NCBI GenBank assembly: GCA_019057865.1
Contig: JAHLWP010000028.1
Location: 1 to 55,770 of the forward strand
From: Promethearchaeota archaeon
Lineage (GTDB): Archaea; Asgardarchaeota; Lokiarchaeia; Sigyniarchaeales; SOKP01
DNA: 55,770 nt
Reading direction: 5' to 3'
Part shown: positions 5,182-54,886 of the stretch, piece by piece
Numbering within the stretch: position 1 is the stretch's first letter
Layout: the number at the start of each line of letters is the position of its first letter
The notes under the pieces: generated by a model
Told to the model about the DNA's origin: nothing
What the model saw: only the letters and a program-made list of their open reading frames with translations
The model's database searches: none
Position numbers and translations under genes: made by a program

Positions 5182-5832
5182 TTATGAGTATAAAAAGTTA
5201 GTATCTTTTTGGTATTTGATTTTGCCTAATTGAAGAAGATGGAGTAAATATATAAAATTTTCATAAATTTTAATTTGATCTTGTTCATCTTCAAATATTT
5301 CATCATAAGCACATGGGAGTTTCCTTTTAATGCTATTGAAGAATCTCATCATCTTTTCAGTAAATTTTTCTTTAGGTAATTCCAGATAAAATTCTTCATT
5401 AACTTTTTCTTTTTCTAGAGGTTCAAGAGAGAATACTGTCCCTTTTCTATTAAAAAGTTTATCTTTAGAGAATTCAAGAAAATTTAAGGAGAGATTATCA
5501 ATATTAAATAGATTTCTCCAACATCCTTCCAGTAATTGATAAATTTCTGTGTCTTTAGGATTTGATTTCAAATATTCTAAAATTTTATTTTCACTATCTA
5601 ATGAACTAATCAAAATTTGCAATTCTTGAAATTTTTGATTAAGTAATCTGCAGGCTTCAGAATATGTTTCAGAACCATCATAAATATTATCAATTGTAAG
5701 GAAATCTTTTATATCATTGAAGATTGGAACAAGTTCCAAATCTAATAAATTGATTTCACCTAAAAGAACTTTATTTTGTATATCTTCAATTTTTTTATTT
5801 AAATCATTATATAGGTCTTTATGTTCAACCAT
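5182..5832 (-). CDS. scpA: Kleisin (ScpA-like)
   Basis: N-terminal GEINLLDLELVPIF and C-terminal NFIYLLHLLQLGKIKYQ match kleisin N-domain and C-terminal WHD patterns; start overlaps the SMC stop (TAATG). Confidence 0.75.
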   Translation of the reverse strand: MVEHKDLYNDLNKKIEDIQNKVLLGEINLLDLELVPIFNDIKDFLTIDNIYDGSETYSEACRLLNQKFQELQILISSLDSENKILEYLKSNPKDTEIYQLLEGCWRNLFNIDNLSLNFLEFSKDKLFNRKGTVFSLEPLEKEKVNEEFYLELPKEKFTEKMMRFFNSIKRKLPCAYDEIFEDEQDQIKIYENFIYLLHLLQLGKIKYQKDTNFLYS

Positions 5833-34499: not shown

Positions 34500-36006
34500 A
34501 TGAGATCCATCTCAAAAAAAATATCTATTATAATAATATTAGCAATTATTTCTTCAGTTATAATTGTTAGTAGCTTCATTTTTTTTAAAGAACAAGATGG
34601 TAATGGTGAACCTTTAAATATCAGAGCATCAGTTTACAAAGAGGACGGTCTTGGTGGATGGACCCCAATTGTTAATTCAAGTGAAAAAATAGATGGTAAT
34701 ATCAATTTTAGTGTGAAAAACTCTCAAAAAGTAATAAAATCATTGAATTATTAGAATTTTATTTAGTAAATTCTCTTCCAGATCTACTAAATCCAAATCC
34801 CGAGGATTGGAGTAAAATTTACACCTTCAATGAAGACATGGTCAATTATTCTGCAATAATAGACAGTCGAACTATTCCAGATGACGATTGGTATTTTATA
34901 GTAAGAGCAGTTGATAAAACTGGATCTATTGTTTACGACGCTTATAATATATCTAACCAATTAATACCATTTTTAATTGATCGTTTTGAAAATTCAGTTA
35001 GTTTTAATTATATTGATATAGGAGGAAGAATAAACCAAAATTCATATATAGCAATTATTCCATCAATACACTTTGAGCAATATATTGATAAATTAGATAT
35101 TTTCATAAATTTCCAAGAAGCAATAGATCTTTTAACTGAGCCACCAATTAATTATTCTGAAATTATTTCTAATTATTATTTAATAGATTTAACAATATTA
35201 TCTGCCTGGATTGATAATAAATCTTTAGCTCCTGATGAATATAATATATCATTCATCATTAAATTACATCTTGACTATGGTGAACAATATTCTAAATATT
35301 TCCAAAATTATATCTTAGAACAGATAGTTTTAGATATTGAGGAACCAGATATTATTTTACTCTCTGAAGATATATTTGAAAAGACATATAATGACCTTGG
35401 AGATCATATTTTAAATGCTACCCTTAGTTTTACTGATAATCATTTTGATTATGTTAAGCTGGAATATTCATATGATACTCACGAACCAGGAAAGGAGATT
35501 TGGTACGATTACAGTAATTATATTGGTAATTCACGCTTAATTTGAGTTTTAACATAATTAACTGGAAAGACGATAAAATTTTTATGCATTTTACTGGATA
35601 TGATAATTTGGGCAACTATTATACTTTAAGCAATGATAGTTATTGGATAAGAAAAGACATGAATAATCACCTAGATTTCATAATAGAAGATTTAAGTGAA
35701 GATTTTAATTATACTGTTGATGGTTATGGTATGATCGATATTAATATTACTGTATATCCATATGATAATGATGTTACTAGAGTTTCTGTGCACACAGATT
35801 ATGAAGTTTTTATATTATCGGATGAAATTATTATAGATGACTATATTTACTTTACTGACCATGGGTCTTCAGATGATGATATAAAATTAGTTTCAGCGTT
35901 TTATAGCATAATGCCCGGTATTAATTACATTCCTATTTACATAGACATTTATCAAAATGCTCTTCTTATAGCTTCAAAAGAAATGACAATTAAGGTTTTA
36001 GGTTAG
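34500..36006 (+). pseudogene. Membrane-anchored extracellular protein broken by two frameshifts
   Basis: N-terminal signal anchor; the frame of 34838..35545 is open back to ~34730 (KIIELLEFYLVNSLP...) and the frame of 35542..36006 overlaps its end; uniform D/N/Y/I-rich composition; Ig-like VRAVDKTG and FTGYDNLGN motifs. Confidence 0.7.
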
Positions 36007-50120: not shown

Positions 50121-50280
50121 TTTCTTCCCCTCAAATTTTATAAAAGTAGAGACTTTAAATTTTGATAGAAGGAGATAATATAAATATCTATTTAAATTTC
50201 ACCTCAAAATATTAATCACAATATCTTTATTGTATAACATATTTTTGGGAATAATTATTTGTTTTAAAGATATTAAAATT

Positions 50281-51765
50281 ATGAAAAAAGAAGTTATTCG
50301 TAAGAAACTAGCTAAAATATGCGGTTCTAAGGACCTCTCTGATGATCCAAAAACACTTAAGATTTTTTCTGAAGATATGAGCTTTACTGAGGGTCATATA
50401 CCAGACTTTGTTGTATGGCCTTCAAAAACTCAAGAAATAGAAAAAATTTTGAAACTGGCGAATAAATTAAATTTTTCTGTTATTCCAGTCAGTTCCAGTT
50501 CAATTTTTAGACATCATGGAGACACAATCCCCAAAAAAGAAAATTGTATTATATTAAATCTCTCCAAGATGAGAAAAATCCTTTCCATAGACAGGAAAAA
50601 TCGCGTTTTAATGATTGAGCCAGGAGTCACTTTTGATGATATCATTTCAAAGTTAAAAGAAAAAGGATTACGATTATTAATGCCACTTTTTCCAACAGGA
50701 ACTAAATCTGTACTCACATCAGCCCTTGAACGAGAACCCATTACTATTCCTAGATATCATTGGGATAGTTCTGACCCCTTATTATGCACTGAAGTAGTAT
50801 TTGGTACTGGAGATTTGTTTCGAACGGGTACTGCCGCAGGTCCAGGAACCGTTAAAGAACAGCAAAAAGTTGGTATTGCTTATGTAAATCCTATGGGACC
50901 AACTCAGTTTAGTCCTTTTAGAATTATACAAGGAGCTCAAGGAAGTCTGGGTGTTGTCACTTGGGCTACTCTAAAATTAGAGTTACTTCCTTCAATTCAA
51001 AGGGTTTTTCATTTTCAATCAGATAACATTCAAGAATTGCTGGATTTCCAACATGAATTAATAAAATATAGATTATGTGATGAAACCTTCATTTTGAATA
51101 ATTTATGTTTAGCTTCCCTATTAGAAAATACTACCCAAGAGATAGAAAACTTAGCAAATTCTGTATTAAAATGGAATTTAATTTATGTTATTGGTGGTAG
51201 GGGGAAATTATCTGATGATAAATTAGCATATCTTGAGGGTGATATTGGCGATATTTTAAAACAATTGAAGCTTGAACATTTAAACAGTAAAAGTCTCGTA
51301 AATGAGAGTAAAATTATCGAATGTGTATCTCAAGCAACTTCTTATCCATGGAGATGCAACTATAAAGGCGGTTATCAAGATATTTTTTTTATCAGTCAGT
51401 TTGAAAAAATTCCTGAATATACTTCATTAGTAGAATCAAATAAGTTGAAAGATCTAGGCATTTATATTCAACCAATAAATCAAGGAACCGCCTATCATTG
51501 CGAATTTGATCTTTATTATGATCCTAATGACGCCAATTTATCTACTAATCTAAAAAACACATTCTTAGAAATTAGTCGAAATCTTATGGATAATGGTGCC
51601 TTTTTCAATCGCCCCTACAGTTTTTGGGCAAAAGAAATGTATGAAAGACACAGCGATCAAACCCTAGTTGCCTTAAAAAAAGTAAAAAAGATTTTTGACC
51701 CAAATAATATATTAAATCCTGGGGTGTTATGTTTTGACAATGATGAAAAAAATAATAGGGATTAA
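50281..51765 (+). CDS. FAD-binding oxidoreductase (GlcD/VAO family)
   Basis: PDFVVWP, IEPGVTF, GAQGSLGVVT, KKIFDPNNILNPG; ATG 50281 preferred. Confidence 0.9.
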   Translation: MKKEVIRKKLAKICGSKDLSDDPKTLKIFSEDMSFTEGHIPDFVVWPSKTQEIEKILKLANKLNFSVIPVSSSSIFRHHGDTIPKKENCIILNLSKMRKILSIDRKNRVLMIEPGVTFDDIISKLKEKGLRLLMPLFPTGTKSVLTSALEREPITIPRYHWDSSDPLLCTEVVFGTGDLFRTGTAAGPGTVKEQQKVGIAYVNPMGPTQFSPFRIIQGAQGSLGVVTWATLKLELLPSIQRVFHFQSDNIQELLDFQHELIKYRLCDETFILNNLCLASLLENTTQEIENLANSVLKWNLIYVIGGRGKLSDDKLAYLEGDIGDILKQLKLEHLNSKSLVNESKIIECVSQATSYPWRCNYKGGYQDIFFISQFEKIPEYTSLVESNKLKDLGIYIQPINQGTAYHCEFDLYYDPNDANLSTNLKNTFLEISRNLMDNGAFFNRPYSFWAKEMYERHSDQTLVALKKVKKIFDPNNILNPGVLCFDNDEKNNRD

Positions 51766-52002
51766 TCTTTAATAAGCTAGTATATAAACTTTTAAGATAT
51801 TTCTAATCCTACTTATATTTTTTCATTTAAGCGGAAGTTTTAAATAATTTTTTAACCAAATTAAACCAAGATCTGATTTTATTAAAAAAATTAAAACCGT
51901 ATAACAAAAATATTCTTGAAGTATGCTATGAAGATTTAGCATAGAAATTAAGAATAAATTAAGGTGATTTAAATCTCACTTAGTGAAGATGAGTATAATA
52001 AC

Positions 52003-53314
52003 ATGATTAAGCGGTGTCTAAGATGCTCGATAGATAAAAAGAATGGCTCTCTTATCCGAGAAATGCAAATGGATACCGCAAGTTCAAATTAAAAGTCAAA
52101 AATACGCCACTGCATGTCCGTCGATAGATATCTATAATTATCATCCATATAGCGGCGGAGGTCGCATCATCTTAGCTTTATTATTAGAGACAGGCAGAAT
52201 TGAACCTTCAGAAGAATTACGAGAAATTGTTTATAAATGTACTGAATGCGGGAATTGTTCTGTTGCTTGCAAATTTCTTAATACTTTGGAACCGTTAGAA
52301 ATTATAATGAAACTTAGGGAAAAATTAGTTGAACTAGGATATGGTCCAATGCCAAAACAGCAAGAATATATAGAAGCTACCAATAAAGTCAATAATCCTT
52401 ACAATGAACCTCATGAGAAGAGATTGGCTTGGTTACCAAAAGATATTCAATTAGACCCAGATGCTAAGGTCTTGTATTTTGTAGGCTGCACATCTTCTTA
52501 TCGAAGACAAGAGATGGCAATCGCAGCAGTTCGTATCCTCAAAGCCGCAGGGATTTCATTTAATATATTACAAGATGATGAATTTTGTTGTGGCAGCCCT
52601 ATTTTGCGAACTGGAGATATCAAAACTTTTAAAAAATTTCTTAATAAAAATTTAGATGTTATTGAATCGAAGGGTATTGATACAGTTATTTTTAGCTGTG
52701 CTGGATGCTATGATACATTTAAAGTAGATTATCCATTATATAGGGAATATAATTTCAAAGTATTACATACTGTGGAATTTTTTGATGAGTTACTCGAAAT
52801 TGGTCAATTAAAACTAATAAAAGAAATACCAATAACCGCAACCTATCATGATCCCTGTCATTTAGGAAGGAATGCTGAAAGATATGATGACTGGGATGGT
52901 GATATTGTTGATTTGATGCCTCTTGTATCTATTAATATACCCCCAAAACCTAAGCGTACTGGTTCGAATGGTATATATGAACCCCCCAGAAATATACTAA
53001 AAAAAATTCCAGGGTTGAAACTTATAGAAATGGAGCGCATAAAAGAATATGCCTATTGTTGTGGTGCAGGAGCTGGTGTAAAATCCGCTTTTCCTGAATT
53101 TGCCCTACAAACTGCAAAAATTAGAATTGAGGAAGCTGAAGATACAGGGGCAGATATACTTGTATCGGCATGTCCATTTTGTTCAACGAATTTACAAGAT
53201 GGAATTAAAGAAAGTGGCACTAATCTGAAATATTATGATATTAGCGAATTATTATTAATGTCTTTAGGTTTGGAACCTGAAAAATTAGAAAAAATTACAA
53301 AGAGGGTTGCATAA
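52003..53314 (+). CDS. Fe-S/CCG-domain oxidoreductase (GlcF/HdrD/GlpC-like); predicted spliced CDS join(52003..52031,52063..53314)
   Basis: Exon 1 MIKRCLRCS(I), possibly starting at ATC 51973; exon 2 CKWIP...CPS...CTECGNCSVAC, YFVGC, CCG, CAGC, YHDPCHLGR, CCGAGAG, ACPFC. Confidence 0.85.
52032..52062 (+). other. Candidate bulge-helix-bulge intron (31 nt) in a protein-coding gene
   Basis: 4-bp helix CTCG(52026-29)/CGAG(52057-60); 3-nt bulges ATA(52030-32) and AAA(52061-63); inner helix GATAA/TTATC; outer 10-bp exon-exon helix GCGGTGTCTA/TGGATACCGC. Canonical cuts restore the frame and CxxCxxC. Confidence 0.75.
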
Positions 53315-54886
53315 TTGGTATTAGAAAAAGAAATTCTTAAAGAATTCCAAGATGTTGTTGGTTCAGAAAATGTTAACGATGGTGAGGTAATCACAAATGC
53401 ATATTCTTATAACTGGTGTATGGAATATGTTAATTACATGGAAGGTAAAGAACCAATACCATTTTCCCCCATACCTAAAGCAGTAATATTACCCTGCTCA
53501 ACAGAAGAAGTTCAAGAAGTTGTGAAGTTATGTAATAAATATGGAATACAATTTAAAGCTCAATCAACTGGTCTAGGTCCTTGGAATCAACCTTCAACAG
53601 AAAACTCGATTATTTTGGATCTCAGAAGAATGAATAAAATCATTAAAATTGACGATAAAAATCTATATGCAGTAGTGGAACCATATGTTAGCGGGGCACA
53701 ACTGCAAGTTGAAGCTATGCAATATGATTTAACGGTCCATATGCCAGGAGCAGGTCCTCAAGTGTCCCCTCTTGCTAGTGCTACATCTATGAATGGTCCA
53801 GGATTTACTTCTCCTCATACAGGACATAGTGCTCGAAACGTACTTGGTGTAGAGTGGGTATTACCAGATGGAGAAGTCTTAAGATTAGGTTCAGCGGGCT
53901 TAAAGAATAACTCTGATTGGTATAATGGTGATGGTCCAGGTCCTAGCTTAAGAGGGATAATGAGAGGGTGGGCAGGCGCAAAATCTGGAATTGGTGTCTT
54001 TACTAAAGTAGCTGTTAAACTTTTTCCATATCCATGTAGCACTGATTTTAGGCTAAAAGGATATTCTCCTAACTATATATTTGATATTCCCGATTTCATG
54101 CGATTATATGTAATGGACTGTAGAAGTTATAAATATCTTGAGAAAGCTATTTTACGAATTGAAGAAGAGGAAATTTCCTTTATGTGTAGCCATCTGTCGA
54201 GTTATGGATTAACAGCAATATTTTCGTATAGTATTGAATCTATGATGGATAAAATGGCTATAGCTAGCATGAAAACTCCTCTAGTTGTACTGATCGCAGC
54301 TAGAACTAAACATGAATTTAATTATAAGCAAAAAGTAATGGATATGCTCTTGGATGAATTAAAATTAAAAAATATTATTGGTACAAAATACACTCCAAAT
54401 TCAATTTTTTATGCAGAAGCATTACGTTCAAATTTAGGGCTACATGGCTTTATAGTAACAGGAGGTTTTCAATCAGCGAAAGGTCAATGTGATACTGTTA
54501 AAACATGTCTTAGAACTACGAAAAAGAGCATTCCACTAAAAAAGAAATATATTAAAAAAGGAGTAATAGGAAATGATTTCGGAGAAGGGGTATGGATGAC
54601 ATCCTATGAATCAGGCCATTACTTTCATGTAGAATCGATAACAATGTTCGATCAAACAGAGGAGGAAAGTGTGAAAGGAATGGGAGAATTTATGGAAGAA
54701 AATTATCAATTTGATTTAGTTAAACATCTAGGAGCACCTTTTTTCGTAGAAGGTGATCGTATGCATGATAAGTTTGGGCCTGTTATGATGAATTATCATA
54801 AATGGTTAAGAAAGATAAAGAAAGCATTTGATCCTAATGGAATTGCTGATTCCGGATTTTATATTTCAGCAAAATCAGAGAATTAA
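53315..54886 (+). CDS. FAD-binding oxidoreductase (GlcD/VAO family), second subunit or paralog
   Basis: AVILPCSTEEVQ, LDLRRMN, VVEPYV, RNVLGVEWVLPDGE, KKAFDPNG; abuts the Fe-S gene stop. Confidence 0.9.
   Translation: MVLEKEILKEFQDVVGSENVNDGEVITNAYSYNWCMEYVNYMEGKEPIPFSPIPKAVILPCSTEEVQEVVKLCNKYGIQFKAQSTGLGPWNQPSTENSIILDLRRMNKIIKIDDKNLYAVVEPYVSGAQLQVEAMQYDLTVHMPGAGPQVSPLASATSMNGPGFTSPHTGHSARNVLGVEWVLPDGEVLRLGSAGLKNNSDWYNGDGPGPSLRGIMRGWAGAKSGIGVFTKVAVKLFPYPCSTDFRLKGYSPNYIFDIPDFMRLYVMDCRSYKYLEKAILRIEEEEISFMCSHLSSYGLTAIFSYSIESMMDKMAIASMKTPLVVLIAARTKHEFNYKQKVMDMLLDELKLKNIIGTKYTPNSIFYAEALRSNLGLHGFIVTGGFQSAKGQCDTVKTCLRTTKKSIPLKKKYIKKGVIGNDFGEGVWMTSYESGHYFHVESITMFDQTEEESVKGMGEFMEENYQFDLVKHLGAPFFVEGDRMHDKFGPVMMNYHKWLRKIKKAFDPNGIADSGFYISAKSEN

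What the first reader, a model, noticed from the sequence alone, without database searches (positions are those of the whole stretch)
52011..52079. Candidate tRNA-type (bulge-helix-bulge) intron inside an Asgard archaeal mRNA, splitting an Fe-S ligand motif
Seen: upstream of the called ORF (52043), another frame encodes M-I-K-R-C-L-R-C-S, while the ORF continues C-K-W-I-P...CP. The CxxCxxC motif needs one codon between them, but there are 34 nt, i.e. 31 extra. These nucleotides fold into a BHB: central 4-bp helix C52026-G52060, T27-A59, C28-G58, G29-C57; 3-nt bulge ATA (52030-32); opposite 3-nt bulge AAA (52061-63); inner stem GATAA(52033-37)/TTATC(52052-56). Outside, two G.U pairs and a small internal loop lead to a 10-bp exon-exon helix, GCGGTGTCTA(52011-20)/TGGATACCGC(52070-79). 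Established: the archaeal splicing endonuclease EndA cuts after the second nucleotide of each bulge and RtcB ligates; the classic protein-gene example is crenarchaeal cbf5. Applying that rule removes 52032-52062 (31 nt) and gives TGC TCG AT|A TGC AAA TGG = CLRCSICKW, so frame and Cys spacing are both restored with no free parameters. Inference: this is a functional mRNA intron in an Asgard metabolic gene. I am not aware of one being described. It would be conceptually similar to non-spliceosomal HAC1/XBP1 splicing, may gate expression of this oxidoreductase, and implies that some 'frameshifted' Asgard genes are spliced.
Basis: partly seen in the sequence, partly recalled or inferred. Interest (0 to 1): 0.95.

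Follow-up and report, generated by a model that had tools for sequence, protein, structure and literature searches.

The report
tRNA-type mini-intron in Asgard Fe-S gene
A 31-base insert shaped like a tRNA intron splits the iron-sulfur motif of an oxidoreductase gene in a Loki-type (Asgard) archaeon. Related genomes keep it with compensating mutations, so the messenger RNA is very probably cut and rejoined by the tRNA-splicing enzymes, which is published for only one archaeal coding gene (cbf5).

Summary
Exon 1 (52003-52031) encodes MIKRCLRCS. A 31-nt insert (52032-62) folds as a bulge-helix-bulge (BHB). The canonical cuts give CLRCSICKW, which is exactly what contiguous orthologues encode.

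The comparative evidence is strong:
- 27 alleles from other Promethearchaeota assemblies carry an insert of 29, 31 or 34 nt at the same codon.
- 17 of 21 unique variants have a strict BHB whose rule-based cuts restore the same peptide. Only 5 of 5000 shuffled inserts do.
- Every inner-stem pair in one variant group shows double-sided compensatory changes.
- Exon codons (TGC TCG, and the exon-exon helix) are fixed only in intron-bearing alleles.
- Exon 2 stays intact, with dN/dS 0.04-0.17.
- The genome encodes two EndA paralogues, RtcB and archease.

Presence of the intron is patchy on the gene tree (8-11 changes). A recombination breakpoint sits at the intron site.

In the papers I could search, only crenarchaeal cbf5 (coding) and a Haloferax 5'UTR have such introns.

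This scan's earlier notes report similar micro-introns in other genes of the same genome. I partly re-checked three of them.

Verdict: a very probable EndA/RtcB-spliced mRNA intron, and a new member of a known kind.

The parts
52003..52031 (+). Exon 1: ATG + 8 codons (MIKRCLRCS) plus the first 2 nt (AT) of the Ile codon. It carries the first two Cys of the CxxCxxC...CP [4Fe-4S] motif.
   Evidence: It matches the N-terminus of 426-aa orthologues such as P0008. The Fer4_8 profile starts at position 2 in P0008 but at position 13 in the called window ORF. In 13 distinct versions of exon 1 among the intron-bearing alleles, substitutions are mostly synonymous and the Cys codons never change.
52032..52062 (+). 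31-nt BHB intron. Removing 52033-52063 gives the same product.
   Evidence: The length is not a multiple of 3. No other copy exists in the genome and there is no Rfam family hit.
52063..53314 (+). Exon 2: the last nt of the Ile codon, then CKWIPQ... to the stop codon (416 codons). It is an HdrD/GlcF/TfrB-like protein with two CCG domains and a 4Fe-4S dicluster domain.
   Evidence: The ORF is intact in all complete intron-bearing alleles. dN/dS is 0.04-0.17.
52026..52029 (+). 5' strand of the central 4-bp helix (CUCG, from the Cys-Ser codons TGC TCG). It pairs with 52057-52060.
   Evidence: 97% of cells paired. TGC TCG is present in 10 of 10 intron-bearing genome loci found without bias, but in only 3 of 57 intronless alleles.
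52057..52060 (+). 3' strand of the central helix (CGAG, the 3' end of the intron).
52030..52032 (+). 5' bulge AUA. The predicted cut is after 52031.
   Evidence: The rule 'cut after the 2nd bulge nucleotide' comes from established knowledge of archaeal EndA.
52061..52063 (+). 3' bulge AAA. The predicted cut is after 52062.
52033..52056 (+). Intron hairpin: inner stem GAUAA (52033-37) with UUAUC (52052-56), and an apical AGA/UCU mini-stem (52040-42/52048-50).
   Evidence: All 5 inner-stem pairs show changes on both sides among 9 variants.
52011..52020 (+). Exon-1 strand of the 10-bp exon-exon helix. It pairs with 52070-52079.
   Evidence: Intron-bearing alleles average 8.85 of 10 pairs against 6.19 in intronless alleles.
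52070..52079 (+). Exon-2 strand of the exon-exon helix.
52043..53314 (+). The ORF as a gene caller sees it. Its start ATG lies inside the intron (MALLSEK...), so it is a mis-called, N-terminally wrong protein.
   Evidence: The same artefact is in public databases: P0001, P0026, P0035 and P0037 start inside the insert, and many 394/396-aa forms start at a downstream Met.
50230..51765 (+). Upstream neighbour: a GlcD-like FAD-binding oxidase.
53315..54886 (+). Downstream neighbour: a second GlcD-like FAD-binding oxidase, abutting the stop codon of the Fe-S gene.

Best explanation
The gene for an HdrD/GlcF-like iron-sulfur (CCG-domain) subunit is interrupted after codon 9 by a 31-nt archaeal-type intron.

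Proposed mechanism:
1. In the pre-mRNA, the end of exon 1 (CUCG) pairs with the 3' end of the intron (CGAG). The intron forms a hairpin, and a 10-bp exon-exon helix clamps the two splice sites together. This gives a bulge-helix-bulge motif.
2. The organism's splicing endonuclease EndA cuts after the second nucleotide of each 3-nt bulge. The genome has two paralogues, consistent with the (alpha-beta)2 type.
3. RtcB, with archease, joins the exons and probably circularises the intron.
4. The spliced mRNA encodes a 426-aa protein with an intact CxxCxxC...CP cluster motif.

Shown here: the structure, its conservation and covariation, the exact restoration of the orthologous sequence, purifying selection on both exons, and the presence of the enzymes.

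Inferred, not shown: cleavage and ligation in vivo.
For: - Structure and cuts: searches show canonical geometry, and the rule-based cuts give CLRCSICKW.
- Orthologues: more than 90 orthologue clusters read ...CLRCSICKWIPQ... contiguously.
- Same site occupied elsewhere: 10 of 66 genome loci and 17 metagenome loci have an insert at the same codon. Lengths are 29, 31 or 34 nt, never a multiple of 3.
- BHB retained: 17 of 21 unique variants have a strict BHB that yields the same peptide. They use two registers (CUCG/CGAG and UCGA/UCGR) that give the same mRNA. Only 5 of 5000 shuffled inserts do so.
- Covariation: 93.7% and 91.3% of cells are paired, against 25-50% when partners are slid. There are 7 and 4 pairs with double-sided changes, and 0-1 of 500 shuffles reach the observed values.
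- Exon codons fitted to the structure: TGC TCG occurs in 10 of 10 intron-bearing alleles and 3 of 57 intronless ones. The exon-exon helix has 8.85 against 6.19 pairs.
- Selection: exon 2 is intact in all complete intron-bearing alleles, with dN/dS 0.04-0.17. This includes a clade in which every member carries the intron.
- No alternative copy or start: no intronless copy of this orthologue exists in the genome, the best paralogue being 38% identical. There is no conserved alternative start codon for exon 2.
- Enzymes: an EndA catalytic-type subunit whose best PDB matches are the A. pernix and P. aerophilum alpha chains, plus a second paralogue. RtcB and an adjacent archease are present.
- Published context: Asgard archaea are reported to have a broad-specificity (alpha-beta)2 EndA (PMC5829648).
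- tRNA context: ARAGORN finds only 18 tRNA genes in this genome, 12 of them with introns. This is in line with heavy use of EndA.
Against: - No RNA evidence exists.
- In the window's variant the outer side of the 3' bulge is closed only by two G.U pairs.
- One variant (L022) has a U-U mismatch in the central helix, and three variants (L069/L080, L075, L071) have irregular inner stems.
- Part of the conservation of the central and outer helices is confounded with amino-acid constraint and with shared ancestry.
- The metagenome alleles were retrieved with a pattern that forced TGCTCGATA, so they are not independent evidence for that feature.
Confidence: 0.85

Rival explanations
1. The insert is tolerated but not removed. 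The protein would be made from a downstream start (the ATG inside the insert, or a later Met) and work without the first two cluster cysteines, leaving exon 1 as a relic.
For: Gene callers produce exactly such ORFs (423 aa here, and 394/396/426-aa forms elsewhere). Exon 2 is under purifying selection on its own.
Against: - Exon 1 is retained with its start codon and both Cys in all 27 alleles, and its substitutions are mostly synonymous.
- The in-frame ATG inside the insert is not conserved. Several variants have a stop after it or no ATG at all.
- The window's exon 2 has no Met until about residue 88.
- This reading explains neither the BHB geometry, nor the covariation, nor the exon codon bias.
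Confidence: 0.06
2. Translational bypass (ribosome hopping, as in T4 gene 60 or the mitochondrial byp elements). The ribosome would skip the hairpin-forming insert without any RNA cutting.
For: The insert is short, forms a hairpin, and lies inside a coding sequence. In the UCGA-type variants a second TCG codon lies near the 3' end, so a matching take-off and landing pair exists.
Against: - In the window-type variants no matching landing codon gives the conserved spacing. Landing on TCC would give S-E-K-C.
- In the UCGA-type variants a hop would give S-E-C, not the conserved S-I/V-C.
- The features that are conserved are the 4-bp helix and the two 3-nt bulges, which are what EndA needs and not what bypass needs.
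Confidence: 0.03
3. The gene is a recently disrupted pseudogene, or the insert is an assembly artefact.
For: An insert that shifts the frame is the usual signature of a broken gene.
Against: - The identical insert occurs in independent assemblies (L004, L067, L084).
- Diverged inserts occur at the same site in lineages with dS up to >2, yet the ORFs are intact and dN/dS is 0.04-0.17.
Confidence: 0.01
4. EndA cuts the BHB, but mainly as a regulatory switch. Most transcripts would stay unspliced or be destroyed, with splicing efficiency setting how much enzyme is made.
For: - The outer helix covers codons 3-6, next to the start codon.
- Presence of the intron is polymorphic between very close relatives.
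- A negative-regulator role was proposed for the cbf5 intron (PMC2738675).
- Removal of the Haloferax HVO_1309 5'UTR intron appears to matter for expression (PMC7714728).
Against: No data bear on splicing efficiency. The close intronless relative L003 shows that the intron is dispensable. This is a refinement of the main explanation rather than an alternative to it.
Confidence: 0.05

Closest known systems
BHB intron in the cbf5 (pseudouridine synthase) pre-mRNA of Crenarchaeota (Watanabe 2002; Yoshinari 2006; Yokobori 2009, PMC2738675)
   Same: A short intron lies inside a protein-coding sequence, is recognised through a bulge-helix-bulge motif, and occurs in organisms with a hetero-oligomeric, broad-specificity EndA. 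Its distribution is patchy, with inferred secondary losses.
   Different: The gene differs (a metabolic Fe-S subunit, not an RNA-modification enzyme) and so does the phylum (Promethearchaeota/Asgard). The two introns are not homologous. Here the intron sits 9 codons from the start, splits a metal-ligand motif, and is clamped by a 10-bp exon-exon helix. Splicing of cbf5 was shown experimentally; here it is inferred.
BHB intron in the 5'UTR of Haloferax volcanii HVO_1309 mRNA (Schwarz et al. 2020, PMC7714728)
   Same: An mRNA is a substrate of the tRNA splicing endonuclease.
   Different: That intron is in the untranslated leader and does not interrupt the reading frame. The host is a euryarchaeon with a homodimeric EndA.
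Archaeal tRNA and rRNA BHB introns, including the heavily interrupted tRNA genes of Asgard archaea (bioRxiv 10.64898/2026.10.13.758758)
   Same: The motif, the cut rule and the enzymes (EndA, RtcB, archease) are the same, and the introns are similarly small.
   Different: The host RNA here is a messenger, so the cuts must also preserve the reading frame. That preprint does not mention mRNA introns.
HAC1/XBP1 unconventional cytoplasmic mRNA splicing
   Same: It is non-spliceosomal and protein-catalysed, it excises a short intron and changes the reading frame, and the exons are joined by RtcB in metazoans.
   Different: The endonuclease there is IRE1, which recognises twin 7-nt stem-loops rather than a BHB. 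No IRE1-type RNase domain was found in this genome (a search with no positive control). The resemblance is an analogy, not a family relationship.

Membership tests
Archaeal BHB (EndA-type) intron | Two 3-nt bulges on opposite strands, separated by a 4-bp helix | tested here: met
   CUCG/CGAG with bulges AUA and AAA, both in the unconstrained MFE fold and in my strict parser. The same holds in 17 of 21 unique variants.
Archaeal BHB (EndA-type) intron | Flanking helices on both sides of the motif (hBHBh') | tested here: inconclusive
   The inner helix is 5 bp, which meets the feature. The outer side has only two G.U pairs, followed by a 3x4 internal loop and then a 10-bp helix, so it is a relaxed form. 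The UCGA-type variants have 3 pairs there, U-A, G-C (one G.U) and C-G. Relaxed forms are reported to be cut by (alpha-beta)2 EndAs (PMC5829648).
Archaeal BHB (EndA-type) intron | Cutting after the 2nd nucleotide of each bulge gives a functional mature RNA | tested here: met
   The predicted product, CLRCSICKWIPQV, equals the contiguous orthologues. The same holds for inserts of 29, 31 and 34 nt.
Archaeal BHB (EndA-type) intron | The structure is maintained by compensatory evolution | tested here: met
   Searches show 7 and 4 pairs with changes on both sides. In one search, 0 of 500 shuffles reach the observed value on four of the five measures. In one search the figures are 0, 0, 0 and 1 of 500. 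The count of further pair types is not distinctive in either call (117 and 87 of 500).
Archaeal BHB (EndA-type) intron | The host encodes the splicing endonuclease and the RtcB ligase | tested here: met
   Two PF01974/PF02778 proteins; the first matches the crenarchaeal catalytic alpha chains best. RtcB scores 561 bits and an archease gene is adjacent. The L1 loop of the alpha subunit was not examined.
Archaeal BHB (EndA-type) intron | Excision and exon ligation observed in RNA (spliced junction, circular intron) | not testable with these tools
Translational bypass element (T4 gene 60 / byp) | Matching take-off and landing codons that give the conserved protein | tested here: not met
   The window-type variants have no matching pair. 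The UCGA-type variants have TCG...TCG, but the product would be S-E-C rather than S-I-C.
Self-splicing group I / group II intron | A ribozyme core of hundreds of nucleotides, detectable by Rfam models | tested here: not met
   The insert is 31 nt, and there is no Rfam hit in 51700-52400.
IRE1-dependent (HAC1/XBP1-type) splicing | An IRE1 kinase/KEN-RNase in the host | tested here: inconclusive
   PF06479 gave no match in the genome, which is 99.7% complete. The control genomes contain no eukaryote, so the search had no positive control.

The most novel reading that the evidence does not exclude
This intron would be one visible member of a genome-wide layer of EndA/RtcB-dependent mRNA splicing in Loki-type Asgard archaea. 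Dozens of protein-coding genes, some of them single-copy and essential, would carry 28-34-nt BHB micro-introns. These would be polymorphic between close relatives and would spread or disappear by recombination with co-conversion of the flanking exons. If so, the closest archaeal relatives of eukaryotes already express many genes through obligatory, protein-catalysed mRNA splicing.
Probability: 0.55. Interest if true: 0.92.

Novelty: new member of a known kind. Interest (0 to 1): 0.8.

Why it matters
- Rarity. In the literature I could search, protein-catalysed splicing of an archaeal coding sequence is documented for a single gene family, cbf5 of Crenarchaeota. A second, unrelated and well-supported case in Asgard archaea shows that the tRNA-splicing machinery can serve messenger RNAs in the lineage closest to eukaryotes. 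That bears on how split genes and RtcB-dependent mRNA splicing (XBP1) arose.
- Annotation. Gene callers mis-annotate these genes. About 20 of the 120 best database homologues of this protein are truncated, or start inside the insert, because of this one intron. 'Frameshifted' Asgard genes should therefore be re-examined before they are called pseudogenes.
- Evolution. The presence/absence polymorphism between 98-100% identical alleles, with a recombination breakpoint at the intron, gives a tractable system for studying how such introns are gained and lost.

Tried and rejected
2. Spliced forms in the protein collection. I searched for short proteins with the spliced N-terminus, which might come from cDNA or transcript assemblies. 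There were five hits at 69-90% identity and none identical, so the search was uninformative.
3. Ab initio census of the whole genome.
   - It found 113,937 strict BHB candidates, which I filtered by ORF fusion.
   - The canonical cut geometry passed no more often than controls with shifted cuts (for example 167 against 130-173, and 30 against 19-32).
   - The filter is swamped by AT-rich helices at ordinary gene boundaries, and this intron itself falls below the exon-1 length threshold. The scan neither supports nor refutes a genome-wide system.
   - It did recover a strict 34-nt BHB at contig C49 5689-5722, inside a fragmented LeuRS-like gene.
4. Strict parser on two earlier notes.
   - rnhB: I confirmed a 30-nt insert with a TAG stop inside GIDEAGR^GPVLGP of the only RNase HII gene. 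No strict BHB there gives that junction.
   - cooS: the gene is split into two ORFs, and the only BHB is a weak, AT-rich 32-nt candidate.
   - Other introns of this genome may therefore be relaxed forms.
5. Mobile-repeat idea. BLAST of the intron against the genome finds no second copy.
6. Known RNA family. Rfam gives nothing.
7. An essential-gene argument from leuS is weakened, because an intact 967-aa open frame with a full-length LeuRS match also exists on contig C1.
Full report
OBSERVATION

- An ATG at 52003 opens MIKRCLRCS in one frame.
- The ORF a gene caller would report starts at 52043 (MALLSEKCKW..., 423 aa) in another frame.
- The Ser codon and the next Cys codon are 34 nt apart. A CxxCxxC motif needs 3 nt there.

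The called ORF has two CCG domains. Its Fer4_8 (4Fe-4S dicluster) match begins only at profile position 13. In the intronless orthologue P0008 the match begins at position 2 and includes the N-terminal CxxC.

An unconstrained fold of 52005-52085 gives exactly the proposed structure:
- a 10-bp exon-exon helix (52011-20/52070-79);
- a 4-bp central helix CUCG/CGAG (52026-29/52057-60);
- a 3-nt 5' bulge AUA;
- a 5-bp inner stem (52033-37/52052-56);
- a small apical AGA/UCU stem.

The energy is -20.8 kcal/mol (z = -2.6). The 3' bulge AAA is closed on its outer side only by two G.U pairs, so the motif is slightly relaxed there.

THE JUNCTION

Cutting after the second nucleotide of each bulge removes 52032-52062. 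The joined exons read TCG AT|A TGC, that is CLRCSICKW.

A search of 5.8 billion proteins found orthologues at up to 94% identity, of 426-440 aa. They read ...MIKRCLRCSICKWIPQVQIKSQKYATACP... without interruption. The prediction therefore reproduces the orthologous sequence residue for residue, including the Ile codon that is rebuilt across the junction.

Only 5 of 5000 shuffles of the 31 nt give a strict BHB with frame-restoring cuts.

THE SAME SITE IN OTHER GENOMES

Several database homologues start oddly (MALLSEKCKW, MNRIYFFHSKCKW, MDRIYVFHSECKW) or are truncated to 394/396 aa.

I fetched the DNA for 66 related loci from Promethearchaeota and other Asgard MAGs. Ten of them carry an insert of 31 or 34 nt between exactly the same two codons, and the other 56 are contiguous. 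A pattern scan of metagenome contigs added 17 more loci, with inserts of 29 or 31 nt.

No insert has a length divisible by three. There are 21 unique sequence variants.

My strict parser requires a 4-bp helix with at most one G.U, two 3-nt bulges and an inner stem of at least 3 bp. It finds a BHB whose canonical cuts give MIKRCLRCSICKWIPQV, or the local equivalent, in 17 of the 21 variants. The other four have one mismatch in the central helix (L022) or an irregular inner stem (L069/L080, L075, L071).

Two registers occur:
- CUCG/CGAG with bulges AUA and AAA;
- UCGA/UCGR with bulges UAA and AAU or AUU.

The second is shifted by one base on both sides. Both give the same mature mRNA, which is what a structure-defined cut predicts.

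COVARIATION

The inner stems differ completely between variant groups (GAUAA/UUAUC, GGUGAAUA/UAUUCACC, AUGAA/UUCAU, and others) yet stay complementary.

| Set | Cells paired | Paired when partners are slid | Pairs changed on both sides | Shuffles reaching observed |
|---|---|---|---|---|
| 9 CUCG-type sequences | 93.7% | 29-50% | 7 (including all 5 inner-stem pairs) | 0 of 500 |
| 12 UCGA-type sequences | 91.3% | 25-46% | 4 | 0-1 of 500 |

One of the five measures, the number of further pair types, did not stand out from the shuffles in either set (117 and 87 of 500).

The exons are also fitted to the structure:
- All ten intron-bearing genome loci, which were found by protein similarity and so without bias, use TGC TCG for Cys-Ser, forming the central helix. 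Only 3 of 57 intronless alleles do; most use TGT TCT.
- The 10-bp exon-exon helix has 8.85 pairs on average in intron-bearing alleles against 6.19 in intronless ones.

These comparisons are not phylogenetically independent. The metagenome loci were selected with a pattern containing TGCTCGATA, so only the genome loci count for that feature.

IS THE GENE ALIVE?

- Every intron-bearing allele on a complete contig keeps an open exon 2 of 408-417 codons.
- dN/dS between intron-bearing alleles is 0.04-0.17, like intronless pairs at 0.11. This includes a clade in which all seven members carry the intron (dS 0.7-0.9, dN/dS about 0.055).
- Exon 1 keeps its ATG and both Cys in every allele. Its variation is mostly synonymous: Ile ATT/ATC/ATA, Leu CTA/CTG/CTT/CTC, Arg AGA/CGC/CGG/CGA.
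- The in-frame ATG inside the window's intron is not conserved in other variants. The window's exon 2 has no Met for about 88 codons, so there is no plausible independent start.
- The genome has no intronless copy of this orthologue; the best paralogue is 38% identical.

MACHINERY

The genome (99.7% complete, 87 contigs) encodes two EndA paralogues. Each has an N-terminal domain and a catalytic domain. One is most similar to the catalytic alpha chains of the heterotetrameric enzymes of Aeropyrum and Pyrobaculum.

This fits the published statement that Asgard archaea have an (alpha-beta)2 EndA with the loop that confers broad substrate specificity (PMC5829648). I did not examine that loop myself.

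RtcB and an adjacent archease gene are present. ARAGORN recognises only 18 tRNA genes, 12 of them with introns. This is in line with a 2026 preprint on heavily interrupted Asgard tRNA genes.

EVOLUTION

On a protein tree of 78 alleles, intron presence needs 11 changes, and at least 8 on well-supported branches. That tree is the quick search (SH-aLRT support only), because the careful search did not finish.

The window's nearest relative, L003, is intronless. From about 52080 onward the two are 97-100% identical in DNA. From there upstream, through the exon-exon helix region, exon 1 and the 5' flank, they are unrelated or much more diverged.

That points to recombination with a breakpoint at the intron site. 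Either the intron was gained with its adapted flanks or it was replaced by an intronless 5' end.

Introns nearly identical to the window's occur in alleles only 76-77% identical in protein (L021, L022). This also suggests lateral movement or strong constraint. These points are inference.

ALTERNATIVES

- Ribosomal bypass does not fit. The window-type variants have no matching take-off and landing codons, the UCGA-type variants would give S-E-C rather than S-I-C, and what is conserved is the EndA motif.
- A truncated protein from a downstream start does not explain the conservation of exon 1 or the covariation.
- Pseudogene or assembly artefact is excluded by independent assemblies with the identical insert (L004, L067, L084) and by purifying selection.
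- Self-splicing introns are excluded by size and by the absence of Rfam hits.
- A regulatory role is possible but untested.

WHAT IS MISSING

There is no RNA evidence.

LITERATURE

Six full-text searches found BHB introns in mRNAs only for crenarchaeal cbf5 and, in a 5'UTR, Haloferax HVO_1309. A 2020 paper states that cbf5 was the only earlier example. Nothing on Asgard mRNA introns turned up, including in the 2026 tRNA-intron preprint and a 2026 review of non-canonical splicing. The library lacks most subscription-journal papers.

CONTEXT FROM THIS SCAN

Earlier notes on other pieces of the same genome report similar micro-introns in thiolase, iolM, cooS, leuS, rnhB, elf1 and 5S rRNA genes. 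For 5S, one note reports spliced environmental RNA.

I re-checked three of these in part:
- The only RNase HII gene has a 30-nt insert with a TAG stop inside GIDEAGR^GPVLGP, though no strict BHB gives that junction.
- cooS is split into two ORFs, with a weak 32-nt candidate.
- A LeuRS-like gene on contig C49 is in pieces and has a strict 34-nt BHB at 5689-5722. An intact LeuRS also exists on contig C1.

My own ab initio genome scan could not separate true introns from noise.

VERDICT

This is a very probable EndA/RtcB-spliced intron in a protein-coding mRNA of an Asgard archaeon (confidence 0.85). It is well supported by comparative analysis and unproven at the RNA level. It is a new member of the kind known so far only from cbf5.

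Noticed in passing
window 51973-52002: The exon-1 frame stays open upstream of ATG 52003 back to a TAA at 51970. It reads ISLSEDEYNN, which resembles the N-terminal extension of the 434-436-aa orthologues (MDEEEYQK / MISESEYQK). No ATG, GTG or TTG is present, and a GGTGA Shine-Dalgarno-like motif sits at 51963-67, just before an ATC at 51973. The start was either moved to 52003 recently, or a non-canonical start is used.
   Followed up: partly
window 52000-52100 versus L003:300-420: There is a recombination breakpoint at the intron. L003 (intronless) is 97-100% identical to the window from about 52080 onward, but unrelated or much more diverged upstream.
   Followed up: partly
L070 and L085 (metagenome contigs): Each contig carries two copies of the gene, one intron-bearing and one intronless. 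The intronless copies (L070b, L085b) form their own well-supported clade, so some genomes appear to have a paralogous pair.
   Followed up: no
own genome, contig C75 81539-82168 (-): The only RNase HII gene has a 30-nt insert with an in-frame TAG inside the catalytic GIDEAGRG motif. A hairpin is present, but no strict BHB gives the junction.
   Followed up: partly
own genome, contig C49 5023-7935 (+) and contig C1 28378-31242 (+): A LeuRS-like gene on C49 is split into at least four frame-shifted pieces, with a strict 34-nt BHB at 5689-5722. A second match on C1 is full-length, in an uninterrupted 967-aa open frame. Bin contamination is 5%, so the two copies may belong to different organisms.
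   Followed up: partly
own genome (all contigs): ARAGORN finds only 18 tRNA genes in a genome that is 99.7% complete, 12 of them with anticodon-loop introns. Most tRNA genes are presumably interrupted in ways the program cannot model.
   Followed up: no
intron loop, alignment A1 columns 35-50: Most variants share AGAAU...CUCU in the apical part of the intron (an AGA/UCU mini-stem) although the inner stem below it has diverged. This may reflect common descent or an unknown functional element.
   Followed up: no
window 34711-34742 (+): My scan flagged a 32-nt AT-rich BHB-like candidate between ORFs 34500-34754 and 34838-35545. It is most likely an ordinary gene boundary and was not validated.
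   Followed up: no
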